Shown piece by piece: positions 4,981 to 22,541 of a DNA stretch of 64,000 nt. The notes under the pieces are model-generated. The model searched no databases and was not told the origin of the DNA. It was given only the letters and a program-made list of their open reading frames with translations. A program made the translations under genes and the position numbers. Where the stretch lies: NCBI GenBank assembly GCA_963575745.1, contig CAUYUJ010000003.1, positions 124,001-188,000 of the forward strand. Direction: 5' to 3'. The stretch's first letter is position 1; every line of letters begins with the position of its first letter. This stretch comes from Prorocentrum cordatum (taxonomy: Eukaryota).

Positions 4981-6103
4981 CTCCAGGGCAGAACGAAGAC
5001 CATGGAGAACAATGGGAAACGAATCAATATTGCGAGGGTAGGCCGAGAGGGAAAGGAAGCAAGTGACATCTTTTTCTGCAAAGCTTGACATTTCTTTTGT
5101 ACTGTTCGGTGGTTGGCGTAGGATTTCACCCTTCGGGGAGGGCCCACTCGAACCTCCGTAACCCCACAGACGGTTGAGGAGGATGAGGGGGAGGAGGATG
5201 CCTAGCCACTGGCAGTGAGACGTCTGCAAATCTGGAAAATTCTTCCGCTGCTGACTGCGAGGCCCAATTGCGCATTCCGCAATTCGCCTCTGTACGCATG
5301 CGGACCTCGCAAAGATGTCTTCGCTACATGCGCCCGTGCTCAAGTTACCCCGCCCTTCACTTCACAGATCCCAGGCCTCGCCAGGACCAGAAGAGAACCA
5401 GACGCAATCAGGGGTATCGTATGCAAGCCACATCCGCGCACCCTGTCACGTGTACAGGCAGAATTGATTGAATAAGACACGCGACAGAACACACGACTCT
5501 TTCGCCAACAACATGGCCTTAAAAACCACAGGACACAAGGGTAAGCTTGCCCCGGGACTGCAGTGGACACCACGCGCGATGCAAAGGACACAAGGTTGCC
5601 CTTGATTTGGCAAGGTCGAACTACTCATCTGGGCCGACTGCACGCGTCTGTCGGCAAATAACATCTGAACACGCGTGCGTGTACAGCCCTCGTGCCACCG
5701 TGACGAACGCGTGATACAGAAAGAACGAGGGGGCAATTCTGGCCACAGCGGGCCGACGCCACAAACGGGTCCTACGACGCAGACCCGAAGAACGACCCGA
5801 AACCCCGAGCCCCTCCTGAACCCACCGCGGGTTCATTTTCAACGTGTTGACTGTACATTCGCATCTGCGTGGGCACGGGAGGAGGGCGGAGGAGGAGGCG
5901 AAGCAGGAGGCGGAGGAGGAGGAGGGGAAAGGGGAGGGGGAAGGGGAGGGGACTATGACAAGCTAGGTGCGCTCGCGTCATATCTGACGTCCTACCCCTT
6001 CCTCCCATCCCTTACCATGGCGCAGATCTCCTGCCTACTCGCACAATCGGATGTCGCAGCATGGCATAGCATTACATGGCATAGCACGGTGTTGAATGTT
6101 AAC

Positions 6104-7145
6104 GCGTAGCATGACATAGCATGGCTTGGCGACGCCCCAAAATGAGGGGGAGGGGCTTCTGCGGTCCAACAAATCAAAGAATCGGCACCGAATGTGTGAT
6201 CACTTCCGATGGTTCCTTCGGGAGGCAATTTTTTAGACTTCGGGGCCTATTTTGAAGGACCGAACGCCATGCAGTGGCACGGCACTGGAAATAATGACGC
6301 CAACGCTGCAGCGGGAACACAATTCGGAACGACTGGAAGCGCGCAAATGAGGCCAGCGCTGAAGCGGGAGCACGATGCGGAACGACTGGTAGCCCGAAAA
6401 CGAAACCAGCGCTTAAGCGAGAGCAGCATTTTGAAAAAACAAGCGCGGAAACGTGGAAATGAGGACGCGTAACCTGACATAGCATGGCGTGGCGACGCCT
6501 CCAAAGTGGGGGGCTTCTGCGGCCCAGAAAATCAACGAATCGACACCGAATGTGGAATCACGTTCGATTGTTTTTTCGGGCGGGCATTGTCTAGATTTGC
6601 GGGCCACTTGGAAGGACCGAAAACCATGCCGCTGCATTGCTCTGGAATTAATGACGCCAACGCTGCAGCGGGAGCATGATTCGGACCGAGTGGAAGCGCG
6701 GAGATGAGGCCAACGCTGCAGCGGGAGCACGATTCGGAACGACCGGTAGCCCGAAAACGAAGCCAGCGCTTCATCGAGAGCAGCCGTTTGGAAAAACCGA
6801 AGCGCGGAAGCGCGGAAATGAGGACGCGTAGCCTGACATAGCATGGCGTGGCGACGCCCCAGAGTCGGGGGGGGGGGGGGGGCTTCTGCGGCCCAGAAAA
6901 CCAACGAGTCGACAGCGAATGTGGAAGCACTTCGGACGGTTTTTTCGGGGAAGCACTTTCTAGATTTTGGGACCAAATTGGAAGGATCAAAAACCATGCC
7001 GTGGCATGGCGCTGGGAATACTGACGCCAACGCTGCAGCGGGAGAACGATTCGAAACGACCGGACGCGCGCAAATGAGGCCATCGCTGCAGCGGGAGCAC
7101 GATTCGGAACGAGCGGTGGCCCGAAAATGAAGCCAACGCTTTAGC
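6104..7145 (+). repeat. Tandem repeat, ~360-bp unit x ~3
   Basis: gcgta.c.tgacatagcatggc.tggcgacgcc recurs at ~6104, 6467 and 6826. Confidence 0.9.
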
Positions 7146-7457: not shown

Positions 7458-7976
7458 TGTAAACAAATGTAATGGAAATGGCGCCTTTTGCAAAGCGCGG
7501 ACGAATACGAGGACTGCTGAATACGCGTTTAATGCGGGCGCGGAAGCTGGCCAGCTTCTGTGCCCGGAGCCAAATGGCCGCGGACAGGGAGAACAGCAGA
7601 CAAGGCAAAGGGCAGTGATGTATACGAGACCTACCGCGCGAGTCTGGTGCTCAAGCGAGTCTGCATGTGCCCTGTCGGTGACAGCACGCAAACCGTACCG
7701 AAACCAACGAGGCCTCATAAACAGTTGCCACGATGGGGCACGTCGCCTGTTTCGGCAACTCCCGTAGATGACGGCCTTCACTCCGCCCCGAGGCACATGG
7801 CCACCCACGGCGCCAATCGCAGACACGGCGCAAGTGGAAAGGGTGGAGTTACTCCCGACAATGTCCATGCTAATTCAGGAGGAAGGGTGGGGCAGACAAT
7901 TGCAGGAACGCAGTAAGATGATTCAAATGCTGCGCGCCAGAAATCTGCTGCCCCGCGAACGCAGCTCTCAGAAACA
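7458..7976 (-). repeat. 3' LTR of the Copia element
   Basis: Bounded TGT...ACA; adjoins polypurine tract at 7977; first ~190 nt align with 16773-17020. Confidence 0.7.
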
Positions 7977-7986
7977 ACCCCTCCTT
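7977..7986 (-). promoter_or_regulatory. Polypurine tract (PPT)
   Basis: Minus strand AAGGAGGGGT immediately precedes the TG of the LTR, downstream of the RNase H stop. Confidence 0.65.
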
Positions 7987-8194
7987 GCACGACTCACTAG
8001 TCGCAATTGTGAACGTAGTTCGCCTATGCGGGCGTTATATCACATGTCCTGCTACGTCGCATTCGCGAAAATAACTCACGCTATGCGGCTGTCTTTGCCT
8101 CTCACTATGTCGCAATCGCGAGCGCAGTCCGGGACATGCGACCGCCCGTGTAACGTCCTGCAGCCGAAATACATGTAGCGACGCTTCCGGCTAC

Positions 8195-9800
8195 TCATCC
8201 CGTCGGCGAAACGTTCTCCTCATCCGCCCTGAAGTCGCTGTCGCGGGAACTGGGCACGGTCTTCTTGCGCCTCTCGCCGTTCAGTCTGACCGTGGCGTGG
8301 TCGCACTTGAGCTTCCCGCGAATCACGTCCAATATCAGCTGTCGGCCGATACTCTCAATACGGAGCTGGTCGGAGAGCCACCGCCCGTGCTCTGAAGGTG
8401 GACGCATAGGATCCATGGCAATGGCCGCGAAGACCGACATCCCGTCCACGACCAGGGTTGCCGGCATGGCGCAGCCTTTCTCCTCCCTCAGTTCCCTGAT
8501 CTCCTCGGCTGAGACTGGGCCCCCGATCATTTCGTGGAGCGCGAGGAAGTGGGCCTGCAGCCCGTCAGCTGCGCCGCGTGCTGCGAGCATCTCGGAGCCG
8601 AATGGAGACAAACACGCAATGTTCTGTGATCGGCTCACGGCATCGTGCAGGTGGTAAACCTCCGTGCTGGTGCTGCGGTACTTGCCGATGCGGATGTAGA
8701 CGGTGTCCCTCGCGCCGTGCCCCGTCTCCTCCTCCCGCATGAAAAAAACCCGTCGCAGCGCGCAGATCTGGCCAGCGCATTTTACGGCAGGAAAGGCGAC
8801 GCGCGCCTTGATCTTCTGCATGGCGCAGACCGCATAATTGAGCTGCATGGCGCGTCGCATCAGCAGCTTGTTGTTGGCCCGGCGCAGCGCCGCAATGCGA
8901 GCTGCGAAGTGGTGCTGGGCGGGCAGGGCACAAGCAGCTGCTCCAAGCAATGAAACGAAGAGGTCGGGTAGTTGACATCCTGCGGGCCCGTCGGCCCTCG
9001 ATTGCAACAGGTCGACGTGCCTGGTCGGCATCGGGGCGCCGATGCACTCGTCCTGGTCGAGCGTCACGGCGCCGTCGGGGCTGCGGTGTCGGTTGGCGCC
9101 GGAATTGGTGAAGTCGCCGCATCCCCCCGTCATCTTGCCGAAGACGCTCTAGATGTGGCGGGTGACCTTATCGACGCGATTCCTTTGTCCAGTGGTATTC
9201 GGACCGTCAACGCGATTGGACAACGCGGCCGCAAACTTTGACTCGCCGGCAACGCAGTCGCTGGACGCCTCGCGCATGACCTCGAACTCTGGGCCCGACC
9301 TGGCGGGCTTGGCGCCGCGCTCTGGCGAGCGCGCGACCTGGGGGAATTTCACGGAGAAGGCTCGGCTCGCGGGTGCGTCCTTGCAGCCCGTGCCTGTTCG
9401 GATGCAGCGCAGGCGCTCGGCCCTCTCATCGCAATTGGGCGCCTGCATGAGGATGGGCAGCAGAGTGGAGTTCACCTCGCCTGGTGCTTCATTTCGTTCC
9501 TTCATCTCGGGACGAATCATGCCCCGCGGGAATACCTTCTCGACGTCCGCGGCGACGAAGACCCAGTTCGGGCGGCGCGCCGCCTCCAAGGACAGCGCGC
9601 GCTGTGACGCGCGCGCGGCTGCCCCCGCGAGCGTCCCTGGCGCGCCGGCGTCCATGCCGCGGAGCCTCAGAGCGCCGCGCGACGCCCGATGATCCGCGTT
9701 CTCTTGCCGTCGGGGCCCTTCCGGTGCTTCCACTTGAAGACGTGACCGGAGACCATGATTTTTCGCGCGCCCTCGAGTGGTCGCCGTTCGGAACATTTGC
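8195..9800 (-). pseudogene. Copia reverse transcriptase + RNase H
   Basis: LRLRGMD, RASQR.LS.EAA, ADVEKVFPRGM (from DV.KAFLQG), GTGCKDAP..RAFS; RNase H SPFGSEMLAA..AAD and LVVDGMSVFAAI. Confidence 0.85.
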
Positions 9801-11219
9801 ATCGATGGTGAGCTCCTCGAGAATGGCCGCGGTCGCCTCTATGGTGGACACCTCTTCCTCTGCCAGAAGATCGGCGTCACGCTTGATGGCTGCGGTCTCG
9901 ACGGCGGCGCGCGCGTTGAGCGCGGCTGTGCAGGAAGCGCCTGCAATGCAGTTGGTGGGCGTCTCCTCGCTGAAGCTCAGGAATGCTTCGCGCGCCACTG
10001 GGTCGAGGTGCATCTCCAAGCGTCTTGCTCGTTCGCCCTCCTCCTCCTCTAGCGTGGCGTGGTCGTCCATGGCGGCGCCGCGCAGGAGATAATCGCGCTG
10101 CGCGTGGATGGCTCGACGCTGGCGCTGCTTTTTGAAATGCTGGGGCCACTCGGCCAAGGCCGGCCGCGGCGTGGTCGACAGCAGCGGGCATCATCAGCTG
10201 GCTGTCGCCGCTCTCCAACGCCTCCGACTCCTGAGTCAGGTCTTCTGCTTCTACGGTTTCATGCCACGCGGCCAACATCACCTGTTGGATAAGGCCAGAG
10301 AAGCCGCTACCTCCTGAGGAATGGCCTACACTGCCGATGGAGATCCTCCCCCAGCGGTGCTGACAGCGTCCTCAGGGGCGTCGATGACACAATCATCGAA
10401 CACCCCATCTGGACCCTGTCTTGTGTCTGCCGCCATGAGCGTCATGTGCACTGCGAGCGTCCTGCTACTGCTCGCCAATGTGCGTGCAGGTGTCGAACTC
10501 GACGCCGTCCAAATGACTATGCCGAATGTCGCCTAGACTCTGAGGGTAACGCATGATGGCTAGGCTGCGGGTGCAGCACGGCCAATCGCCCACAGATTTC
10601 TGGCTGTGCAGTAGACGTGCGGCACGCATGTCTGGCAGCTGGAAACATATGCGGGATACGTGGCGTAAAGCTCCGAGAATGTCTGGACGCTGCCGCGTCT
10701 GCGCGGTCATCTGCACACCCCTTGCGTCCTCCCACTGGCCGAAGGTCGTGGTGCCGGAGCCTGGCATGATGTGCTCGATGAAATTCCCCACTCGGCCCCA
10801 GGCCATGCCAGTCCTAGCCGAGCCAAGCCAGTGCCCATGTCGTCGGAGACGGCACCGATGATGGGCCGGACCTCCCGCAATCTCCAGATCACGTCAGCTC
10901 GGCGGTACTTGCTTCGAGCAGGATCGAGCCGGATCGAGAGACGTGACAGCCCCAGGGCCCGCCCAGCCGCGTGCGTTCTTTGTGCTCGGAAGCCTGTGGA
11001 TCCCCACCTGGTCGCCAACGCTGAAGCGGCCCTCTCGGGACTCGGTGGTGCGTGTCTGGGGGGCGCGGCGAGCGCGGGAGATGGGCGCGGCCTCAATCGC
11101 GCGTTGCAGTGCGATCTCTCTGAGTCGCTACTGCAATCGGCTGGGCTGCACAATCCCACCATGGGGTCGGCGCCGGCGACATAGTTGCCACAAATCTTTC
11201 CGATTTGTCTATTTCCAGC

Positions 11220-11665
11220 GGTGGCAGCATAGCCAGGTGACCCCCGAAGACGACATTGCATGGCGCGACGCCGCCAACGTGGGTGAGGCTCCTACATGCA
11301 AAGATGGCGTGGGCGAGCATGGAGTCGAAGTTGGCTACAATATCTTCTAGCCCCCCGTCGTTCGATGAAGCGAGCGTGCTGTCGCGGAGCACGGATATCC
11401 ACTTGACTCCTCGTGTCTGCATCTCCTTTACGAAGTAGGTGGAGGTCGTGCCGTCCTCTCTGTCCACGATAAACCTATCCATCGCGCCGAAGATTTGGCT
11501 CCATGATCAGTCGAAGGCTGCAAGCAGCGTCGAGTCGTGTTTGGAGTCGATCTCCTGGCTGTTGATCCAGCGTAAGGCGCAGCAGATCAGATGCGTGATC
11601 ATGTGGTCCTTGTAGTGAAGGATGTCGCACTGAACGTGCTGGTTAACTCGCGTTGAGAGCAGCTG
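11220..11665 (-). pseudogene. Integrase catalytic core (rve-like)
   Basis: LSTRVNQHVQCDILHY...LRW...W.QIFGAMDRFIVDRE.G, then LAHAIFA..SLTHVGGVAP..VVFG; stop and frameshift present. Confidence 0.85.
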
Positions 11666-12474
11666 GCGAGGCCGCTCCACCGACGACGCGGCGCCATTCC
11701 AGCGACCAGCAAGCTCATCTACTTGGCGGCGCAGGGAAAAATGTCATATCCCCACGGGCGCCCGCGGCGTAACGGGAGCCGGCTCGCCCCCCAACGCTGG
11801 GGCTCAGAGAAGCGGTTCCGGCGACTGTGTTGCTGGGCCGCAGAGTCCTGGTTCGGGCGACTGCGTCGCTGGACCCGGACCACGAGCCAGACCAGCCACA
11901 GGGAACGCGCCGAGATGAACAACACAACGAGCCACCGACGCATCGGTTGGCAATCCGACCCCTTCCGGCTGGCCTCGCTTGGACGCCGCCACCTGGCGCG
12001 AGCGCTACGCGGGGTATCGCGCGAGACACGCGTGCGATAGCTGCGCAAATTGCACCTCCGGTGGTGGCGCGCCACTAAGGAGGAAGTGGCACGAGGTGAT
12101 GTGGTCCTCCAGGTCGTGCTTGTCATCGCGGGTGTTTTCCGGCGCGCGGGCGCGGCCTGACGTTGAACTCGCGCGAGCGTGCAGGATGATCGCGTTTCTT
12201 CTCCTCGCGGCAGCCTGGGCGCTCCCAGAGAGCGGGGGCACTGTGGGGGTATCGGCCCGTGTTGGGGCCCCTGGAATGCGTTGGCGAGTCCGCCCGCGCG
12301 TTGCGCTTGCGCGCCTAGCGCGGGAAGCGCGCGCGCGCGCGCGCGCGCTCGGCGGCCATCTCACTTCGGATCTGACCATCTGTGGCCCCAAACGCCGCTG
12401 CTGGAAAAGGCTGCCTCGGCGACGTCGCATTCGCGAACGTAGTTCGTCTTGCGCGTGCGCCTAAGGCGGCGACG

Positions 12475-13090
12475 TAAATCCACGATCTCATGCGCGAGTC
12501 GTTCGGCCAACTTCCAGGGCGAGGTTTGCGCGTCGGAGCTGTTGTGGCCCTCGCCGCTGGCGTGCGGATGTTTGTTCGGGCGCTGGAGGTTGCCGAACTG
12601 TTCGCTGATTTCCACGATATCGGCAACGAGACCAATGATTTTCCTCAAGATGGCACCAAGCCGATGACGACCTTGCCCGCGCCGGGTTCTACGGGCGCGT
12701 CCGCCCACGGCGGTTCGCGGCGCAGCCGCGACGGGTCGGGAGGCTCGTCGACGAAGTAGCGGCCCAACTCCAACTGGAATCGTATGATGTGGCCGCAGAA
12801 ACGTCCGCTTGGGGCCGCGTCCTGGTAGGGGCGCAGCCGCGTGTCGCTGATGAGCTCGTAGTTGCACGTCGCCCAACGACCGAATGGCCGGCGCGCGGGG
12901 GCCATGAGGGCCACTGGAGGTTGGCGCTGTCGTATGAACCTCTCAACTACACGTTGTTGGTCTTCGTCGTTGAGGTAACAGCTGATGACCAAGTCGAAGT
13001 TCTCGCCCACCCTGGCGCGGCGTCGGACAGCAAACTGGCCAGCTCGAGCCTCCCCGCAACACGCCTCGATGACGTCGACGCCGCGGTCGC
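12475..13090 (-). pseudogene. Divergent C5-cytosine DNA methyltransferase-like domain within Copia pol
   Basis: VDVIEACCGEA (motif I-like), GENFDL, PPVALMAPARRPFG (decayed motif IV P-x-C), GRYFVDEPP (VI-like), GAILRK, HPH..EG, AQTSPWKLAERLA (X-like), in the expected order and spacing. Confidence 0.62.
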
Positions 13091-14464
13091 GTGTGGTGAA
13101 GTGGGTGAGGTGGTGTTGGGTCGCATCGAGCTCGGTGCGCCGTAATGTCGTCAGAGCGCCCGTCAGGTGGCGATCCGACGCCGGGGCCGACGATCCTGCG
13201 AACCACCACTTGGGCAGACCCGAGGTAAGGTTGCCGTGGAGTTCGCCCTCGTCGCATCCGTCGGCGCGGCTCGGCTCGCCAATCGCGGGTGCGCCAAGAA
13301 GGCGGATGATGCCGCCTGTGATATCTGAACCGCTGTCGTCGTGCTGGTCTTGGACGACCTGCCTGCGCACTACAGGCGCATGGCCTTCCTTTATCTTCCT
13401 CTTCTCCTGACGAATGCGCTCTGCTGCGGATTTGGCACTGGCGGCGCAGTCGCCGGATGCCTTCCGTTCGACAACGGACTCAGGGTCGCCGACGCAGTTG
13501 CCCTTAACCCCCATGGCCGGTCGACCCCCAGCAGGGGAGGGACCATTTTGAATGACTTGTCGTATTTGTCTGGGTGGTCCTTAAATCACACTCTCCTCGA
13601 TGGTCCTGTGCTGGGGTCCTGAATCTGCAGCTTCGCGTGGTGGGCGCGCCGCGTGGAAGCCCGGCCGCGCTGCTTGGGGTCGCGCCTGTCAGTCGCCATT
13701 GGACAGGAAGTAGTGCTCAAATCTGGTGTTGAAGCTGTTGCTGTGCCTCGTCGAAAACGCGCCTTCGTCGGCGCCGCTGCTCGTCGAAATGCAGTCGCGG
13801 TGGGGCGCAAGAAATAATACCTCGCGGCGCAACGGGGCTAGGTACATCCGTCGGTTCATGATCGTCCAGCCGTAGACGTGCCCCTCCAGATTGGTGCCAC
13901 ATTTGCACAGCTGGCTGGGTGCAGGGGCGCCTGTGAGCATCGCGGAAGCAACCCTGCTGCGATCAGCTCCTAGGGCGAATGGCTCGTGGCATGCTCTGTG
14001 CTTGCAGGAGTAGGAGCGCGTGCGCGTCGGTCATCTGCTTCGCGGCGGGGCGAACCGAATGTGAACCGTGGATGCCGGAGATCACGACCCTGGTAACTGC
14101 GTCCTCGACGCGGGCACGTCAACGGGACAGTGAGTCGAATACGCGGTGGATCTCACCCTCGCTCGCGCCGCGAGTGACCCGCGACGCGCTGTAGTTTGCG
14201 ATGGGCAACGCGGGGTCCGATAACGACCGAGACGCGCGATCAAAGTCGGCGTCGCGGATGACGCGGCAGCCGTGGTGCTGCAATGCCTGCAATGTGTCCC
14301 GCCCCCGTTCCAAGACGCAAGCGGGGCGCCCCGGGCCTGCTGCCCCCCTCTGTCGGGCCCGGCGATTCCCTGGTGGGTCGGCTCCTCAGGGCAGTCGGCA
14401 ACATAGTTGCCCCCCTGACCTGCGGGGGCAGGGGTGGCTGCGTCGCTCGGCATGCAAGTTCAGC

Positions 14465-14860
14465 CGAAGTGTTCGAAACCAAACGATCCACATAGACAAT
14501 GGAGATAGGCTAGAGAACCGCGATCTCGGCGTCGTCGCATTGATCCAGGATGCGCCGGGCAATGCGATGGCCCTGCCCGACCGCGTGGGCCCGCGAGGTG
14601 GCGTTGCACATGGTGACCATGACCTCCCCGCGGTAGTCGGGGCCCGCGCCGCCAGCGCTGTCGATGCCCTTGAGCGCGAGATTTGAGCGCGGGGCAATGC
14701 GCATGTATGCGCCCGGCGGCGCTAGTGCTCCTATGCGGGTGGGTGCCAGTTCCAAGCCGCAGGTCGGGGTGCTTGCGTCGGAGCTGGCGCGTAGGTCGCA
14801 GCTGGCGTAGCCCGCGCTTCGCGCTGGGGCTCTCGCATTCGGACTGAACAGTTTGTCTTG
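14465..14860 (-). pseudogene. dut: Trimeric dUTPase domain within Copia pol
   Basis: KLFSPNARAPARSAGYASCDLRAS (motif 1), RIAPRSNLALKGI (2), GAGPDYRGEV (3), GHRIARRI (4), CGSFGF in a shifted frame (5). Confidence 0.88.
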
Positions 14861-15139
14861 ATCTGGTCGAATTCTCGTCCGTCGGCGTCGTGGTGCTCCT
14901 GGCCGTCGCTGCCCACTGCCAGTGGCGTGAGCTGTTTGGGCGGCAGGCTCCCTGAGGGCGGCTGGAGCTCACTGACGTCGTCGACTAGAATGTAGAGGTG
15001 TCCGCCCGGAACGAACTCCATGCCGACGTGCATCGCGCCTGGGCCCCCGGTGATCTCGCGGCCGCCCGGTCTCGGGGAGGCGAGGCGCTTGTTTTTTGAC
15101 GCCTGTCGCCGCCGCCCCGTTGTTGGACCCCGCGGATTG

Positions 15140-15430
15140 CCAACCTAACGGGGCAGAGATAGCGTCGCCTGTGCCCTCCACGGCCGGAGCGAGCACGCCG
15201 TGCCGAGTGGTCGCTCCATCGCGCGATGTTGTGGCGATGGGGCAATGGATTCACCAGTTCGTCACTTGTGACCCGTTGCCCACTCCTGCCACGTATAATG
15301 GAGCAGACAACCTCTCCTCCGAGGCTTGGAGCTTCGCCAGCATGGCTCGCCTGGCCGAAATCTGGGTGAATCGCGCGGCCCAGAGGTTGGTCCAGGCGCC
15401 GGTGTCGACTATGACACCTAACCGACCACC
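15140..15430 (-). pseudogene. Retroelement aspartic protease
   Basis: GVIVDTGAWTNL...PLYVAGVGNGSQ (DTGA active site); in-frame stop downstream. Confidence 0.85.
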
Positions 15431-16757
15431 TGCAAGCGATGTGCTTTCCAGGTAGCACGGCGAGTCGTTCTGGGGGATCAAGCCTGCGCCTGGCGAGCTC
15501 AGCCACCGCGGGAATTCAATCCCATGTGGCGTTGGCGCGTGCGGAGACACGTGCAAGTCCAAATGAGCGTCGCAGGGTACTCGGACGGGAAACTGGAAAG
15601 ACTGCCTGGAGATCTCAGAAGATCTTGCCGCGGTGTCCCGGGTGCTGGAGTTCGCCGAGGAGAAGGTGCCGCGTCCTGCTGCGGCGGCGTCTCCTGCGGC
15701 GCGTCTCTGGCGGGCGCGTCGCGGCCCGGCGCCGCAGGTGTCGGACCCGCGCGCGCGCGCGATCTGTGCCAATGAAGCGGAAATCGGCGATGACGTCGGC
15801 TGGTCCGCGGCGCGCGGGGCAGTGGACCAAGCTGGCGCTGGTGTTCTGCATGAAGATGTAGGCGGCATGCGCGGTGCAAGATGCGTCGGCGCAGGCGCAG
15901 GGGCGTCGCGCTGCCGTTGCCGCCGCCGGCGTCCATGCAGGGGGGGCAGCTGGCCAAGGTAAGCGCGCCCACTCCGTCGGCCCTCCATCCGGAGTGGGGG
16001 CCCTTCCGTTGGTCAAGGAGGCGCTGGAAGCTGGGGGCCCACCGACGGCGTTGCTCCGACCATGGGCCTCGGAACCGTCGTGGGTTCCCGCCCCGAGTGC
16101 GTCCCTCTTCGTTGGCGCATTGGGTTTCGTCTTCTGTTGCGTCGTTGCGGCTGTCACCGCGCCTGGGGCGCCCTGCGCCGTAACTGCGGTGATGCCCCTC
16201 GTGCGTCGCGTCGCCACTGCGCTGACTGCCGCCAACTGCGCGAAAGTCCAGGGGAATGCGCATCGGGATCTCGCCCTGCCAGTCTGTAGGGAGTCGGTGG
16301 GCATGCCGATGCGTCGCGTGCCATGAGAACGCACGCGTGCACTCTCCGACCTGAATCGCTGTCCCTGGCATGTGCGGCAGCATAGCTGTCCAGCGCTCCA
16401 CTGACTTCCCATTCTTAATACTTAATGATGCTACTACCCGCCTGCGCTCATTTTCAGCCGTAAACCCGGCCCGCGGGGCCGAACGCGACTCCACCGCAGT
16501 TGGAATGCGCCCCGGGAGAAGAGCGAGACGCGGCGGCTGGCGGGCGTCGCGCCCCTCGTAATTGTCGAAAACGTACTTGTTATGTTAAATGTTATTGTTG
16601 TCCGTCTTGGCGGGCACGAGGGCATGAACGCGGAAAGCAACGCGACTCGGATCAACCATGCTGAGCGCGGTGAATAGGATGAGGTCGAGGAATGCGAGCG
16701 AGAGACGGGCAGGGGTGCCGCGCGGGCCATGGTGGCGAGAAGGGTGGAACGGAGCTG

Positions 16758-16770
16758 TGCTCCGCTACCA
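16758..16770 (-). promoter_or_regulatory. Primer-binding site, tRNA-iMet-like
   Basis: Minus strand TGGTAGCGGAGCA, 2 nt after the 5' LTR end; resembles the TGGTAGCAGAG initiator-Met PBS. Confidence 0.7.
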
Positions 16771-16772
16771 AC

Positions 16773-17020
16773 TAGGAACACGGATGTGATGGACATGGCG
16801 CCTCTTGCAATGCGCGAACGAATGGGGGTTGCGCGGTGCGCGTCTGCAACGGGCGCGGAAGCTGGCCGGTTTCCGCGCCCGAAGCTACATGGCGGCGGAA
16901 GGGGGGAACGGGCGCGGAACAGCTGGCCGGTTTCCGCGCCCGAAGCTACATGGCGGCGGAAGGGGGGAACATTTGACAAGGCAGGAAGCAGGAACATGTA
17001 GGATACATACCGTTCGAGTA
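16773..17020 (-). repeat. Truncated 5' LTR with internal ~60-bp tandem duplication
   Basis: tgtgatggacatggcgcctcttgcaatgcgcgaacgaat vs tgtaatggaaatggcgccttttgcaaagcgcggacgaat at 7468; 16849-16970 is a near-perfect dimer; ends at a poly-G run. Confidence 0.7.
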
Positions 17021-17299
17021 AGGGGGGGGGGGGGGGGGGGGGGGGGGGGGTGCGGGGAGGGGGGGGGGGGGGGGGGAAGAGGAGGGGGATGGGGGGGGAG
17101 GAGGAGGAGGAGGAGGAGGAATAGGAGGGGGAGGAGGAGGAGGAGGGGGGGGGTGTGGAGGAGGAGAAGGTGGAGCGTGCCAAAGGGTACCAGTCTCCAC
17201 TGACCTGACCACTGCGACTGCTGCTGCTGCCGCCGCTGCTGCTGCTGCTTGAAACGCTCCCCTTGACCAAGAAAGAGCAGCCAGCGCCTCGCGTCGGGG

Positions 17300-20200
17300 T
17301 CGTGATTATCTGGTATTTCCTCGCCTCCACGATAGTTTGTGCCAGGATCGCTCGACCCAGCAGCTCTCTCTGACGCCGTCGGCATGGGGGGCGGATGGAA
17401 ACAGAGATGGCACCGAGCGGAGGCAAGACGAGAGGCGAGACGGTAAGAATGATAGCATGCGACAATAAAAGCAAAGTGATGGCCGCGAATGCCAAAGAGA
17501 AACGCGGGCTGGGCGGGGAGCTGGGAACGGAGAGCGCGGGCAGCCCAAAACTGGAGTCGAGAGCAGGGGCGGGCGCGATGGGAGACGCGGTCGGGATCCC
17601 CAGGGCAGCCGAAGACACGCCCGCAAGGGCGTTGCACCCCCCCTCCTGTCGCCCAACCCCCAAGGGCTGACTTGGGGGCGAAAAGAGCCCGAGCCGAAGG
17701 GATTTCCCAAAGCGCCTGTCTGTGGGCCTCCCAATCCTCACTCGACAATCTCAACCTTAAGTTAAAATGTCTTCTCGCCCTCTGGGCCAAGAGCGCTTCG
17801 AGAGGGGCCCGAGGGAGCCCGGACTTGAAAACGCGACAGAACCGACCCTGCTAACGGATAGGCGGCTCCTCTCGAAGATCTTGGGGCGTGGAATGAAATG
17901 AGCGCATCGCTTCGGCTCCGCGCTCTCGAAGCACGGGGTCCGATGATAATCCCTTCGCTGCCTCGTCCAACGTCGAGGCAATGGCGGGGGGGGGGGGGGT
18001 GGGGGGGGGGCGGGGGGGCGCCAAAAGGGCGGGGCCAGAGATGCGTTGCCCCACCAACCAAGAGCGCCCGCGCCCACCATCGTCGCACGAAGGCGCTCCA
18101 AGTTCTGACGCCACGTGGAGCACGCATGTAAGGACGACCGCATGAGAGCGGCTGCCGCGAGGGCCTGAGTGCTAGGAGCCTCGGGCAAGCCACAGCGCGC
18201 GAGCTGAAACCAGTCGCCGTGGCGAAGGGGAGTGAACGGCGCGCGACGCATGCGAACAAAGGGCCTGCGCTCGGTCATGGGACCACTTGCGCAAGGCTGG
18301 AACTGCTGCATCTTGTAGCTCAGGACTGCGACAACTCTCTCACGATATCCAGCGACCGAGACTGCGCGAGGGGCACCGCGCGCGCCCGAGGCAGAGGAGC
18401 GACGCAGAGTTTTCTCAAATGGCTCCTTCCACTCATCCTCTGGAGTCGCGTCGGGCCCGGGGAGGCATCCGAGATGCATGGTCTTCCCAGACGCTAGAAA
18501 AAAGCTCCACGACTCCTCGATCAGGCCCAGGCCGCGCTGAAGCTCAGCACATGTCTAAGGCGCGGCAGGGGCCCGAAGCGGAACCGCAACAGATTTTCCA
18601 AGCAGGTGACGAACCCCATCCCTCCTCCACACCACCACCCCGATATCATCTGCACATGCGCGAACCACTCCCCGATTCTTGCGCGAAACATGGCGTTCCA
18701 TGTCGGCAAGGAATGAGTTAAGTGCGACAATGAACAGCGCACCCGATAGCGGGCGCCCCAGCAGGACTCCTGACAACATACAGTACAAGAAGACCAGTGA
18801 GTCGCCGACCATGGAGTAGCAAGAGTTCACGTGATAGAGCACTCGCACAGCAAGCCGAAGACCATGCGGAATGGGAGCAGCATCGAGAGTAGCGAGCATC
18901 CAAGACTGGCGAACAGATGGGAAGGTTTGGGCAACATCAAAAGCAAGGAGAGGGGCGAGCTGGGGGGAATCTTGATTTTGCCGAATGCTCGTCTCCCGAG
19001 CCGCCGAATAGAGACCAACAACGTTGTTTAGAAAATTGCGGCGCGGAATGAGGCCGCGCTGAGACTCAGGCGCATGGCCTTGGAGGGCGCGGCATGTTGC
19101 CAGGTTCAAAACCGCAGCCGCCACCTTATTCGACGCATGTTTCAGCCCGCGGGGTCGCACTTCGCCTCCCGCGCGGGTTACTCCCGTCGCCGCAGTGTCC
19201 TCGCCCTCCTCCGGCTTCGGGATGAAGACTTGGAGAGAGGCATTAAAGACGGGGGACATAAGATGACCCGACAGGGCCCGAAGCAAAACGCGATGCAGGG
19301 TTCGAGGACCAGCCCATGGCCGCCAGACGGAGAACGGAAGCTCATCGGGACCCGGGGCAAAGGAACAGGCCCCCCGGAGGAACTGCTCAACCCCGCGGAG
19401 GCAGGGAGGAGGAAGGCCCCGAAAAGCAAGGTCCGACGGTCCAAACTTCTGGATACATTGGCTGGCTCGATGCAGGAGCGGCGTCTCCTGCGCGAAGATC
19501 GGGGCCCAAAAGCGATTGAGCTCTTGAGCAACCCATTTAGGCAAGGAAATCACCTCGTCCGATCCCCCCCCGCCCCCAACTCCGCCCAGCACTCCAGCGA
19601 AGTGTTTTCGCCGCCCGAAGCTGCGCCGCAGCCTCGAGCGCCTCGCGACGGCGGCGCGCCGCTGCCTGAAGCGGGCTTGCATGCCAGGGCGAGGCTCATT
19701 GTTGGCCTCAGCTTCCAGGGGCCAAATACTCTGCTGACGCTCTTGGCGCTGCAACGAAACGTGGAGATCGTTGAGCGCTCCGGGGCCCAGGAAAGAGACC
19801 GCGCTCTGTCCTCCGCCCGCGTGGAGGTCGGACAGTTGAAGGCGAGCGCAAATCCATCCGCGGCGAGCGAGGAGGCAACGAGCCAAGCGGACATCTCGGC
19901 GAGAGACACAGCGAGCGGCCGAGCGAGCTGCCATGGCACGTGAGACCAGGGCTCTCGGTTGAACCTCCAACTGTAGATCCCGCACTGCTTTGGCCGCTAC
20001 CCTGCTGCAGAGGGTAGCGTAGCGAAGAGCCCCGGGGGCTCGCAACGGTCAGTCGATAAAAGACTCAGATACTCGCGCTCAGCCACAAGCTTTGGGCACA
20101 GAGGATCAGCGACGACATGGCGCGGAAGAGGGCGAAAATGAAAGGGGGGGGGTACCGTGGAACCAATAGCCCGTGGCCGAGCTTTCATCGTGAGAGTGAC

Positions 20201-22519: not shown

Positions 22520-22541
22520 CTTGAGCCAAAATGGCTACGGA
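22520..22541 (-). other. Dinoflagellate spliced-leader (DinoSL) relic, exact
   Basis: Reverse complement is TCCGTAGCCATTTTGGCTCAAG, matching DCCGTAGCCATTTTGGCTCAAG; not followed by the GT donor of an SL RNA gene. Confidence 0.95.

What the first reader, a model, noticed from the sequence alone, without database searches (positions are those of the whole stretch)
8195..15430. Copia retrotransposon carrying both a dUTPase and a cytosine methyltransferase-like domain between protease and integrase
Seen: minus-strand order PR (DTGA, ~15410) > dUTPase with all five motifs (14465-14860) > unknown region > DNMT-like motifs I/IV/VI/X (12475-13090) > integrase > RT > RNase H, inside LTRs with PBS and PPT. 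Known: dUTPases occur in some retroviruses and LTR elements; DNMT-bearing DIRS, LINE and Gypsy elements are reported from Symbiodiniaceae; dinoflagellates have heavy CG methylation and much 5-hydroxymethyluracil. Inference: this family may control the base chemistry of its own cDNA, excluding uracil and pre-methylating C to mimic host DNA. I am not aware of this dual cargo being described in a Copia, but cannot verify novelty. This copy is dead.
Basis: partly seen in the sequence, partly recalled or inferred. Interest (0 to 1): 0.88.

Follow-up and report, generated by a model that had tools for sequence, protein, structure and literature searches.

The report
Copia retrotransposon with hidden methyltransferase-like domain
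This is a dead copy of a dinoflagellate Copia-type retrotransposon that carries a dUTPase and a previously unrecognised, widely conserved domain predicted to fold like a cytosine-5 DNA methyltransferase, so the main transposon group of these algae may chemically mark its own nucleic acid.

Summary
On the minus strand, about 7467-16970, lies a decayed Copia-like element. Its order is retropepsin-like protease (DTGA), dUTPase (Pfam E 1.3e-14), a conserved unknown domain, integrase, RT and RNase H.

The unknown domain (12470-13100) has 392 relatives at E<=1e-3 among 1.84 billion representatives. Many sit in 1400-3300 aa polyproteins with rve and RVT_2. Pfam does not detect it.

An AlphaFold model of an intact relative (pLDDT 90) matches cytosine-5 methyltransferases best in three structure searches. 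The family keeps a Gly-rich loop, P-x-C (Cys in 145 of 155), and E-Q/N-P (Glu in 120 of 123). The window copy has Arg in place of the Cys, at least five frameshifts and a stop.

The dUTPase is inherited: an intact relative, P0151, has protease-dUTPase in the same order. It is optional in the family and common in other Copia and Gypsy polyproteins. One intact polyprotein (P0231) has both domains in the reverse order, and a related second domain type also occurs beside dUTPases.

Methyltransferase activity and its substrate are inferred, not shown. I found no published description. The polypurine tract and motif X were not confirmed. Interest is high.

The parts
16784..16970 (-). 5' LTR remnant: a 128-bp repeat (16784-16909) plus a 61-bp tandem duplicate reaching 16970
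   Evidence: blastn and Smith-Waterman alignment to 7467-7594 give 76% identity over 128 bp. The tandem copies 16848-16909 and 16907-16970 are 97% identical.
16759..16770 (-). Primer-binding-site-like TGGTAGCGGAGC, 13 nt after the end of the detectable repeat
   Evidence: Read directly. Its likeness to the complement of the 3' end of initiator tRNA-Met is recalled, not tested. No tRNA gene was found in the window.
15771..15854 (-). Remnant of a RING-finger region upstream of the protease
   Evidence: tblastn of P0151 residues 145-172 gives 46% identity, E 0.002. P0151, P0045, P0077 and P0165 carry Pfam zf-RING_2 upstream of the protease-like region.
15062..15595 (-). Retropepsin-like aspartic protease region, with DTGA at 15395-15406
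   Evidence: Collinear with P0151 residues 242-413 at 46% identity. The aligned family motifs are D-[TSP]-G-[AS], GVGxG and PALLGL[RK]S. No Pfam protease hit, so the assignment rests on motif and position.
14465..14848 (-). dUTPase domain, decayed, with a frameshift before motif 5
   Evidence: Pfam PF00692 E 1.3e-14 on 14522-14833. 42% identity to the intact dUTPases of P0151 and P0152. A motif-5-like string lies in another frame.
13101..13480 (-). Conserved N-terminal extension of the methyltransferase-like module, with HDDSG at 13329-13343 (family motif H-x-D-D-C-G)
   Evidence: HMMER alignments start at about query residue 50 of ORF 12648-13580. The motif is present in 45 of 64 relatives that have enough upstream sequence. 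It is of modest confidence in model 2.
12470..13100 (-). Cytosine-5-methyltransferase-like core domain. Motif I (EACCGEA) is at 13047-13067. Motif IV (PARRPFG) is at 12879-12899, with the family Cys replaced by Arg at 12891-12893. The E of E-x-P is at 12744-12746. There is a frameshift near 12648, and the C-terminal Cys/His part is decayed.
   Evidence: Fold evidence from an intact relative.
10612..11710 (-). Integrase (DDE core and C-terminal part), with a frameshift
   Evidence: tblastn to P0036 residues 815-1170 and P0015 residues 810-1059. Pfam rve matches P0015 residues 810-897.
8270..9688 (-). Copia-type reverse transcriptase and RNase H, with an in-frame stop near 9146-9148
   Evidence: tblastn to P0036 residues 1467-1950 (E 6e-48) and P0015 residues 1505-1972. 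Pfam RVT_2 matches P0015 residues 1506-1706.
7467..7594 (-). 3' LTR remnant
   Evidence: The same 128-bp repeat as at 16784-16909, 9315 bp away.

Best explanation
The region is an old, dead insertion of a Copia-like LTR retrotransposon in a dinoflagellate genome. Besides protease, integrase, RT and RNase H, its polyprotein carried two nucleic-acid-chemistry domains.

1. A dUTPase directly after the protease. By the established role of retroelement dUTPases, it hydrolyses dUTP so that reverse transcription does not put uracil into the cDNA.

2. A compact module of about 215 aa, N-terminal to integrase, that is a very divergent relative of cytosine-5 methyltransferases. It has a Rossmann-type core, a Gly-rich loop after strand 1, a conserved Asp-Leu, a P-x-C loop after strand 4, E-Q/N-P at the end of strand 5, and a Cys/His cluster (C-x-G-x-H-x-H) where true DNMTs have the target-recognition domain.

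I infer that in live copies this module binds S-adenosyl-methionine. I infer that it uses the Cys as nucleophile and the Glu as acid to methylate C5 of a pyrimidine in the element's own cDNA, and less likely its RNA, inside the particle.

Shown here: the domains, their order, the family, the conservation and the predicted fold. Inferred: cofactor, chemistry, substrate and benefit.
For: Element and order.
- The window is collinear with polyproteins of 1964-3301 aa that carry rve and RVT_2.
- It is flanked by a 128-bp direct repeat and has a PBS-like TGG... string.

Host.
- An exact 21-nt dinoflagellate spliced leader sits directly in front of an ATG at 22520-22540(-). None was expected in shuffles.

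dUTPase.
- Pfam E 1.3e-14.
- P0151 is an intact protease-dUTPase relative and collinear over 15595-14537.

Family of the unknown domain.
- 392 representatives at E<=1e-3 and 119 at E<=1e-10.
- 13 further polyproteins, 11 of them with RVT_2.
- Motif spacing is rigid: motif I, then +56, +107 and +171.
- Conservation over 159 domains: Gly34 139 of 145, Asp61 135 of 156, Pro87 149 of 156, Cys89 145 of 155, Glu138 120 of 123, Cys168 89 of 91.

Fold.
- AF2 model: pLDDT 90.1, pTM 0.87.
- Foldseek against PDB: all 37 listed rows are DNMT3A/B/C, DNMT1 or DNMT2-type, best E 3.2e-5.
- VIA-align against 48,161 chains: ranks 1-12 are all cytosine-5 methyltransferases, Z 12.1-9.8.
- BFVD: of 26 hits at E<=1e-3, 11 are named cytosine/DNA methyltransferases, 11 have no name and 4 bear other names. 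Several are about 200-225 aa long.

Sequence hints.
- PHROG families that E. coli Dcm also matches are hit by family members. P0138 hits phrog_757 at E 4.5e-4 and phrog_116 at 0.046. P0092 hits phrog_757 at 0.011. P0136 hits phrog_2882 at 0.0094.
- The only hhalign alignment to Dcm relatives puts P-x-C on P-C and E-Q-P on E-N-V.
Against: - No Pfam DNA_methylase hit: 0 of 19, and 1 of 72 at E 0.11.
- A PDB sequence-profile search found nothing at E<=10.
- hhalign to Dcm relatives is not significant: E 0.22 and 0.057, probability at or below 1%.
- Fold scores are moderate. TM is 0.3-0.5. Generic Rossmann dehydrogenases follow closely, at Z 9.7 against 12.1, and fill 33 of the 50 VIA rows.
- There is no recognisable R-x-R (motif VIII), motif IX, motif X or target-recognition domain.
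- Most members have P-x-C rather than P-C.
- Only 3 of the 19 family members scanned hit a methyltransferase PHROG at E<=0.05.
- The window copy itself lacks the Cys and is broken.
- No biochemical data exist.
Confidence: 0.6

Rival explanations
1. The domain is a real C5-methyltransferase-fold enzyme, but it acts on RNA rather than cDNA. Possible targets are the element's genomic RNA or the primer tRNA, in the manner of DNMT2.
For: DNMT2-type enzymes (S. pombe Dnmt2, human DNMT2, EhMeth, Spodoptera DNMT2) are among the best fold matches. The domain has no DNA target-recognition domain and is small. In the passages I read, de Mendoza et al. raise RNA methylation for the LINE-borne DNMT that failed to methylate DNA in yeast (PMC5890265).
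Against: DNMT3 and a prophage DNA methyltransferase score at least as well. Short viral cytosine DNA methyltransferase-like proteins of about 210 aa are the closest BFVD matches. Nothing here discriminates between substrates.
Confidence: 0.2
2. The domain only shares a Rossmann-like scaffold with methyltransferases. It would do something else: a different chemistry using the conserved Cys, a Zn-dependent nucleic-acid-binding or assembly role, or a processing role at the N-terminus of Pol.
For: Dehydrogenase-type Rossmann folds score nearly as high (Z 9-9.7). Motifs VIII to X are absent. There is a conserved Cys/His cluster (43 of 58) and an N-terminal H-x-D-D-C-G motif (45 of 64) that have no DNMT counterpart. 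Profile comparisons to true DNMTs are not significant.
Against: Three structure libraries and two aligners all put cytosine-5 methyltransferases first. The conserved residues fall exactly at the positions of motifs I, III, IV and VI, on the predicted strands 1, 4 and 5. The only annotated PHROG families that recur among the weak hits are DNA methyltransferases.
Confidence: 0.17
3. The dUTPase, or the methyltransferase-like stretch, is a separate nested insertion or a captured host gene fragment that happens to lie inside this one dead copy.
For: Most relatives of the polyprotein lack a dUTPase (0 of 19; 0 of 13). The dUTPase tree is unresolved.
Against: P0151 is an uninterrupted ORF with RING, protease and dUTPase, collinear with the window across the protease-dUTPase junction. 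The methyltransferase-like domain sits at the same place in dozens of intact polyproteins.
Confidence: 0.03

Closest known systems
DNMT-bearing retrotransposons of Symbiodinium (SymbioLINE-DNMT, SymbioDIRS-Dnmt3) and KnitGypsy-Dnmt3 of Klebsormidium (de Mendoza et al. 2018, PMC5890265; passages read)
   Same: A retrotransposon polyprotein carries a cytosine-5-methyltransferase-type domain. The host lineage has very heavy CG methylation. The proposed role is methylation of the element's own cDNA.
   Different: Those domains are recognisable DNMTs (Dnmt3-type or a Symbiodinium-specific type) found by hmmsearch, and they sit in LINE, DIRS or Gypsy elements. That paper states that Symbiodinium Copia 'lacks any DNMT domain'. 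The domain here is in Copia, between protease and integrase. It is about 215 aa, has P-x-C and E-Q-P, has a Cys/His cluster in place of a target-recognition domain, and is invisible to Pfam.
Solved cytosine-5 methyltransferases (prophage CP-933R methyltransferase 3g7u, DNMT3A/3B, M.HhaI, DNMT2/EhMeth, DNMT1, MET1, DIM2)
   Same: These are the best structural matches: VIA Z 12.1-9.8 over 168-208 residues, Foldseek E down to 3e-5. The order and placement of the Gly-rich loop, the Cys loop after strand 4 and the Glu at the end of strand 5 agree.
   Different: Sequence identity is 7-14%. There are no motifs VIII (R-x-R), IX or X and no target-recognition domain. One extra residue lies between Pro and Cys in most members. 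The domain is about 70-110 residues shorter.
Short viral cytosine-methyltransferase-like proteins in BFVD (for example A0A0A0RJX0, 210 aa; Tetraselmis virus 1 putative cytosine DNA methyltransferase, 218 aa; Lactococcus phage P087 putative DNA methylase, 212 aa)
   Same: Similar size and predicted fold: E 7.8e-9 to 7.7e-5, TM 0.47-0.58.
   Different: They are stand-alone viral genes, and sequence identity is 11-15%. I know of no test of their activity, and these names are database labels.
dUTPase-bearing LTR retroelements and retroviruses
   Same: A Pfam dUTPase lies inside the Pol polyprotein. 59 of the 120 listed relatives combine it with a Copia-type RT, and many others combine it with a Gypsy-type RT.
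   Different: Here it sits between the protease and the methyltransferase-like domain. Relatives place it after that domain (P0231), after RNase H (P0174, P0199, P0253, P0260) or before RT (P0196, P0256).
Heat-activated Ty1-copia-like elements of Symbiodinium microadriaticum (Chen et al. 2017, PMC5776459; passages read)
   Same: Copia-order LTR elements of Symbiodiniaceae with integrase, RT and RNase H.
   Different: The passages found describe only RT, integrase, RNase H and LTRs. 'Methyltransferase' and 'dUTP' occur 0 times in the main text. I could not test whether those elements belong to the family found here.

Membership tests
Cytosine-5 DNA methyltransferase (Pfam PF00145, DNMT) | Match to the family profile above the curated threshold | tested here: not met
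   PF00145 hit 0 of 19 homologues and 1 of 72 at E 0.11. The PDB profile search gave 0 hits. hhalign to Dcm relatives gave E 0.22 and 0.057. Weak hits to Dcm-type PHROGs occurred in 3 of 72 and 3 of 19, best E 4.5e-4.
Cytosine-5 DNA methyltransferase (Pfam PF00145, DNMT) | Class-I methyltransferase fold closest to solved C5 methyltransferases | tested here: met
   This is a predicted model (pLDDT 90.1), not an experimental structure. Foldseek PDB: all 37 listed rows are DNMTs. VIA wide: ranks 1-12 are C5 methyltransferases, Z 12.1-9.8. BFVD: 11 of 26 significant hits are named cytosine/DNA methyltransferases and no other named class recurs.
Cytosine-5 DNA methyltransferase (Pfam PF00145, DNMT) | Motif I Gly-rich cofactor loop after strand 1, and an acidic residue for the adenine (motif III D-I/V) | tested here: met
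   E-L-C-G-G: Gly34 139 of 145, Gly35 139 of 145. Asp61 135 of 156, Leu62 144 of 156. Strand 1 lies at residues 29-32 of the model. The equivalence to DNMT motifs is by position, and cofactor binding was not tested. In the window copy Asp61 is Tyr.
Cytosine-5 DNA methyltransferase (Pfam PF00145, DNMT) | Motif IV catalytic Pro-Cys in the loop after strand 4 | tested here: inconclusive
   Cys is conserved in 145 of 155 and Pro87 in 149 of 156, but usually as P-x-C. The canonical P-P-C occurs in 24 of 155. The window copy has Arg in place of the Cys.
Cytosine-5 DNA methyltransferase (Pfam PF00145, DNMT) | Motif VI E-N-V Glu at the end of strand 5 | tested here: met
   Glu138 is present in 120 of 123, followed by Q (85) or N (24) of 122 and by Pro in 114 of 122. 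Strand 5 lies at residues 134-140. hhalign places E-Q-P on the E-N-V of Dcm relatives.
Cytosine-5 DNA methyltransferase (Pfam PF00145, DNMT) | Motif VIII R-x-R, motifs IX and X, and a target-recognition domain | tested here: not met
   At that position the family has [Q/R]-C-x-x-G (Gln 69 and Arg 20 of 93; Cys 89 of 91), followed by C-x-G-x-H-x-H in 43 of 58. No G-N-x-V-like motif was seen.
Cytosine-5 DNA methyltransferase (Pfam PF00145, DNMT) | S-adenosyl-methionine-dependent methyl transfer to cytosine C5 | not testable with these tools
   Needs biochemistry.
Ty1/copia LTR retrotransposon | Domain order protease-integrase-RT-RNase H with a Copia-type RT (RVT_2) | tested here: met
   The window is collinear with P0015, P0036 and P0035. 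In P0015, Pfam finds rve upstream of RVT_2. The window's own fragments gave no Pfam hit for integrase or RT.
Ty1/copia LTR retrotransposon | Flanking LTRs, PBS, PPT and target-site duplication | tested here: inconclusive
   There is a 128-bp direct repeat at 76% identity, 9315 bp apart, and a PBS-like TGGTAGCGGAGC. No PPT or TSD was identified, and the LTR ends are not defined.
dUTPase (Pfam PF00692) | Match above the curated threshold, and the conserved motifs | tested here: met
   54.5 bits against a cut-off of 22, profile positions 8-109 of 129. Motifs 2 to 4 are recognisable, motifs 1 and 3 are mutated, and motif 5 lies in another frame. The intact relative P0151 scores E 3.1e-35 over positions 2-129.

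The most novel reading that the evidence does not exclude
A compact, Pfam-invisible cytosine-5 methyltransferase would be an ancestral, standing Pol domain of the dominant Copia clade of dinoflagellates. It would methylate the element's cDNA before integration, so that new copies enter the hyper-methylated genome already marked. Pairing of this domain, or of its type-2 relative, with a dUTPase in at least four different positions would then mean that these elements actively control the base chemistry of their cDNA.
Probability: 0.25. Interest if true: 0.9.

Novelty: new variant of a known kind. Interest (0 to 1): 0.75.

Why it matters
Retrotransposons that carry DNA methyltransferases are known from only a few lineages. 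The one survey of Symbiodinium states that its most abundant elements, Copia, have none (PMC5890265, passage). If the domain found here is an active methyltransferase, that statement needs revising. The dominant transposon clade of dinoflagellates would then encode its own base-modifying enzyme. That bears on how their nearly fully CG-methylated genomes arose and on how new insertions escape or mimic host marking.

The family has hundreds of 50%-identity clusters and a confident model. This gives a directly testable minimal C5-methyltransferase scaffold with a Cys/His cluster in place of a target-recognition domain.

It also shows that motif reading plus structure prediction can recover domains that profile libraries miss. 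The dUTPase part by itself is ordinary.

Tried and rejected
- **Names and taxa of the homologues.** The listing of cluster members and the protein atlas were unavailable. All family members come from unnamed ENA, Logan or JGI records, so their organisms are unknown.
- **The search of earlier findings.** Nothing on this genome or on look-alikes.
- **Sequencing runs.** One DNA holder with 24% of the words, names coded, and no RNA holder listed.
- **PDB sequence-profile search.** 0 hits.
- **Profile comparison to Dcm relatives.** Not significant. The Dcm alignments are of one bacterial subfamily only, and eukaryotic DNMT profiles were not available.
- **The genome search around E. coli.** It gave only the record itself.
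- **Metagenome scans.** P0151 found no relative. Alignments A1 and A5 were not conserved enough to search with. P0231 found 4 fragments, none reaching the methyltransferase-like or dUTPase region (3 cover only the C-terminal 100-500 residues; L126 matches 1628-2829). So no further copy with the window's protease-dUTPase-methyltransferase-like order was found.
- **LTR extension and PPT.** Alignments beyond the 128-bp repeat were no better than shuffles.
- **dUTPase tree.** 120 rows and 140 columns, unresolved. The window's nearest row is P0151, and P0231 lies elsewhere without support. One or several acquisitions cannot be told apart.
- **Second model (P0040, with the N-terminal extension).** pLDDT 77.8. 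The extension is of low to modest confidence, and no fold search was run on it.
- **Rfam and tRNA scans of the window.** Nothing found.
- **Literature.** Searches found no report of a methyltransferase-like domain or a dUTPase in dinoflagellate Copia. The library lacks most subscription journals and Repbase reports, and no supplements were read.
- **A DinoSL-like string inside the LTR repeat.** Considered and left as a remark only.

Full report
**What is in the sequence**

The interval lies in a GC-rich window of about 62-67% GC. Reading the minus strand in three frames gives, from high to low coordinates:
- a retropepsin-like motif VIVDTGAWTNLW (DTGA at 15395-15406);
- a dUTPase;
- a long stretch without obvious identity;
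- a stretch with the strings VIEACCGEA, NFDL, MAPARRPFG and YFVDEPP;
- integrase-like, RT-like and RNase H-like strings.

Pfam scanned 16 minus-strand ORF fragments and recognised only the dUTPase. The hit was PF00692, E 1.3e-14, 54.5 bits against a cut-off of 22, on residues 46-149 of ORF 14510-14968. Two other rows (CrgA at E 0.22, FtsK_4TM at E 0.047) are below threshold and I treat them as noise.

The copy is dead. The tblastn segments to intact relatives switch frame at least five times: 15595 / 15087 / 14833; 13490 / 12657; 11710 / 11127. The RT/RNase H frame holds a stop near 9146-9148.

**Borders**

One direct repeat flanks the coding part. It runs 16784-16909 against 7467-7594: 128 bp, 76% identical, 9315 bp apart. 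The 5' side also has a 61-bp tandem duplication.

Thirteen bases after the end of the repeat, on the minus strand, stands TGGTAGCGGAGC (16759-16770). It looks like a primer-binding site. Its likeness to the complement of the 3' end of initiator tRNA-Met is recalled, not tested.

Extending the repeat gave nothing better than shuffled sequence. I found no polypurine tract and no target-site duplication. The element is therefore about 9.4-9.5 kb, old, and only roughly delimited.

**Host**

None was expected in 100 shuffles. It is followed directly by ATG. No whole genome was held.

**The unknown domain is a real, large family inside Copia polyproteins**

I searched ORF 12648-13580(-) with HMMER against 1.84 billion representatives. 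It found 392 proteins at E<=1e-3, 119 at E<=1e-10, and a best E of 1.7e-31.

Pfam on 19 of these hits gave:
- RVT_2 in 6 (P0015, P0035, P0036, P0058, P0077, P0105);
- rve in 4 (P0015, P0105, P0013, P0018);
- RING fingers in 2;
- DNA_methylase in 0;
- dUTPase in 0.

A second search with alignment A1 among longer proteins added 13 polyproteins of 1402-3301 aa. Eleven of them had RVT_2 precomputed and none had a dUTPase.

tblastn of the long hits back onto the window shows full collinearity:
- protease-like region 15580-15092;
- the domain 13600-12480;
- integrase 11710-10612;
- RT/RNase H 9688-8270.

The order is that of Ty1/copia.

In most polyproteins of about 2000 aa the domain is near the N-terminus and no protease motif precedes it. 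ORFs such as P0165-P0167 and P0226 end with the protease-like region. I read this as a two-ORF layout in many lineages and a fused one in P0077, P0045 and the window's lineage. This reading is an inference.

**Anatomy and conservation of the domain**

Motif positions are rigid. Taking [E/L/Q/V]-[L/I/V/M]-C-[G/S]-G as position x, P-x-C-x-x-[F/Y]-[G/S] follows at x+56, E-[Q/N]-P at x+107, and C-x-G-x-H-x-H at x+171.

Over 159 domains aligned to a profile of A1 (numbering of P0007):

| Position | Conserved in |
|---|---|
| Glu31 | 139 of 144 |
| Gly34 | 139 of 145 |
| Gly35 | 139 of 145 |
| Asn53 | 143 of 155 |
| Asp55 | 136 of 156 |
| Asp61 | 135 of 156 |
| Leu62 | 144 of 156 |
| Pro87 | 149 of 156 |
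| Cys89 | 145 of 155 |
| Gly93 | 134 of 148 |
| Glu138 | 120 of 123 |
| Pro140 | 114 of 122 |
| Cys168 | 89 of 91 |

Position 88 is Pro in 24 of 155, giving the canonical P-P-C. Position 139 is Asn in 24 of 122, giving E-N-P.

The C-terminal Cys/His cluster is present in 43 of the 58 sequences that reach that far. An upstream H-x-D-D-C-G motif is present in 45 of 64.

Such conservation at 25-60% pairwise identity argues for selection on a catalytic centre.

The window copy has lost it. It has Arg for Cys89 (codon 12891-12893) and Tyr for Asp61. A frameshift near 12648 precedes the decayed C-terminal part.

**Fold**

AlphaFold2 on A1 (72 rows, first row P0007, 240 aa) gave pLDDT 90.1 and pTM 0.87. 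The model has a strand-helix core:
- the Gly-rich loop follows strand 1 (residues 29-32);
- the Cys loop follows strand 4 (82-85);
- E-Q-P ends strand 5 (134-140).

Three structure searches agree.

1. Foldseek against PDB returned 66 hits at E<=1e-3. All 37 listed rows are DNMT3A/B/C, DNMT1 or DNMT2-type enzymes, best E 3.2e-5, TM 0.3-0.47.
2. VIA-align does not depend on Foldseek. Against 48,161 chains it ranked cytosine-5 methyltransferases 1 to 12: 3g7u, DNMT3B, DNMT3A, M.HhaI, DIM2, EhMeth, DNMT1, MET1, a C5-carboxymethyltransferase, Dnmt2, ZMET2 and DNMT1 again. Their Z scores were 12.1-9.8 over 168-208 residues. In all, 17 of the 50 rows are C5 methyltransferases. The rest are short-chain dehydrogenase-type Rossmann proteins, plus one MAT2B chain, from Z 9.7 down.
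3. BFVD gave 26 hits at E<=1e-3. Eleven are named cytosine or DNA methyltransferases, 11 have no name and 4 bear other names. The best are about 200-225 aa long.

The margin over generic Rossmann folds is modest and the model is a prediction. I therefore call this 'C5-methyltransferase-like fold', not membership.

**Sequence-level link to true DNMTs is weak but consistent**

- Pfam: PF00145 hit 1 of 72 members at E 0.11.
- PDB profile search: 0 hits.
- hhalign of A1 against six Dcm-type sequences gave E 0.22. Against 79 Dcm relatives fetched from bacterial genomes it gave E 0.057, probability at or below 1%. In both runs the only alignment found lays P-x-C on P-C, and in the second also E-Q-P on E-N-V.
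- PHROGs: the family hit by most A1 members is phrog_757, 'DNA methyltransferase' (3 of 72, best E 4.5e-4).
- In one search, E. coli Dcm matches phrog_116 (6.6e-96), phrog_363, phrog_757 (0.063) and phrog_2882 (0.16). Family member P0138 matches phrog_757 (4.5e-4), phrog_116 (0.046) and phrog_363 (0.44). P0092 matches phrog_757 (0.011). P0136 matches phrog_2882 (0.0094). The other 16 of the 19 family members scanned matched none.

**The dUTPase and the 'dual cargo'**

A search with the dUTPase ORF among longer proteins found P0151 (652 aa). It has a RING finger, the protease-like region (VIVDSGAWTNLW) and an intact dUTPase (Pfam E 3.1e-35). It is collinear with the window from 15595 to 14537 at 46% and 42% identity. 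So the dUTPase was inherited in this position and is not a private insertion. P0151's contig is 2283 bp, so what follows it is unknown.

A search with P0151 residues 280-640 among longer proteins gave 165 hits. Of the 120 listed, 59 combine PF00692 with the Copia RT PF07727 (my hand count), and many others combine it with the Gypsy RT. A dUTPase in Copia is therefore common.

A profile of A1 run over all 284 fetched proteins found the methyltransferase-like domain in only one of those 120. This is P0231 (2840 aa), an intact polyprotein:
- methyltransferase-like domain at 562-728, with A-P-P-C-T and V-E-N-P;
- dUTPase at 838-966;
- rve at 1530-1620;
- RVT_2 at 2274-2441.

Both domains thus co-occur in an intact ORF, but in the opposite order to the window.

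Four further dUTPase-bearing Copia proteins (P0152, P0174, P0196, P0256) carry a second domain type. Its strings are E-[I/L/F]-C-C-x-x-D-S, I-P-C-T-G-G, E-[W/L]-P and G-C-x-x-G, and two of the four that reach that far end with a C-x-x-x-H string (CDGSH, CTKDHDH). hhalign relates it to A1 with probability 92%, E 5.8e-7, over 143 columns. Its place varies: after dUTPase at the C-terminus in P0174, after RNase H in P0196, and before RT in P0256.

This recurrence is suggestive, but the set was selected for having a dUTPase. The dUTPase tree is unresolved. I cannot say whether the pairing is more frequent than chance, or how often it arose.

**Most likely mechanism**

Shown: a Copia-order polyprotein family with a conserved module of C5-methyltransferase-like predicted fold upstream of integrase, and in this lineage a dUTPase between the protease and that module.

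From established knowledge of dUTPases: the enzyme lowers dUTP and keeps uracil out of the cDNA.

Inferred: the module binds S-adenosyl-methionine and methylates C5 of cytosine in the cDNA, or in RNA, through Cys89 and Glu138. The Cys/His cluster would replace the target-recognition domain.

It is plausible and untested.

**Comparison with what is known, and novelty**

In the passages I read, PMC5890265 reports DNMTs in LINE and DIRS elements of Symbiodinium and in a Gypsy element of Klebsormidium. It states that Symbiodinium Copia 'lacks any DNMT domain'. PMC5776459 describes Symbiodinium Copia-like elements with RT, integrase, RNase H and LTRs only.

Six full-text searches and passages of two further papers gave no report of such a domain. 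The library lacks most subscription journals and Repbase. I read no supplements.

I rate this a new variant of a known kind: retrotransposon-borne methyltransferase-type domains. Real uncertainty remains about activity.

**Verdict**

The dUTPase is ordinary. The methyltransferase-like domain is the finding.

Noticed in passing
window 22520-22540 (-): An exact 21-nt dinoflagellate spliced-leader sequence follows a long CTC/CTG repeat and is followed directly by ATG. It looks like a relic leader at the 5' end of a retroposed gene. None was expected by chance.
   Followed up: partly
window 15771-15854 (-); proteins P0151, P0045, P0077, P0165-P0167, P0226: The ORF that holds the protease-like region carries a RING finger (Pfam zf-RING_2) upstream of the protease. 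P0165 also has a zinc knuckle. An E3-ligase-type domain in a Copia gag/protease ORF is unusual.
   Followed up: partly
window 7556-7576 and 16860-16900 (-), inside the LTR repeat: The repeat holds a string (CCGCGGCCATTTGGCTCCGG in the 3' copy) that resembles the spliced leader at about 16 of 21 positions with one gap. This could be chance.
   Followed up: no
window 16994-17190 and 17963-18049 (+); also 5865-5963: Very long G-rich and GGA-type low-complexity tracts lie directly beside the 5' end of the element. On the minus strand they read as poly-Pro/Ser ORFs.
   Followed up: no
window 6071-7145: A tandem array of about three units of roughly 360 bp, 66-86% identical, lies just downstream of the 3' LTR remnant.
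   Followed up: no
proteins P0152, P0174, P0196, P0256: A second methyltransferase-like domain type (ICC-DS, IPCTGG, E-W/L-P, and in two of the four a C-terminal C-x-x-x-H string) occurs in other dUTPase-bearing Copia polyproteins at varying positions. It is related to the first type by hhalign at 92% probability.
   Followed up: partly
protein P0221: An NCBI record named 'dut [Symbiodinium sp. KB8]' (1795 aa) combines a dUTPase with a UBR-box and a UBR1-like winged-helix domain. It may be a gene-model fusion or a captured dUTPase.
   Followed up: no
window 13329-13343 (-); family motif H-x-D-D-C-G: A short, strongly conserved acidic Cys motif lies about 100 aa upstream of the methyltransferase-like core, in 45 of 64 relatives. 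Its role is unknown. It might be a processing site or a metal ligand.
   Followed up: partly
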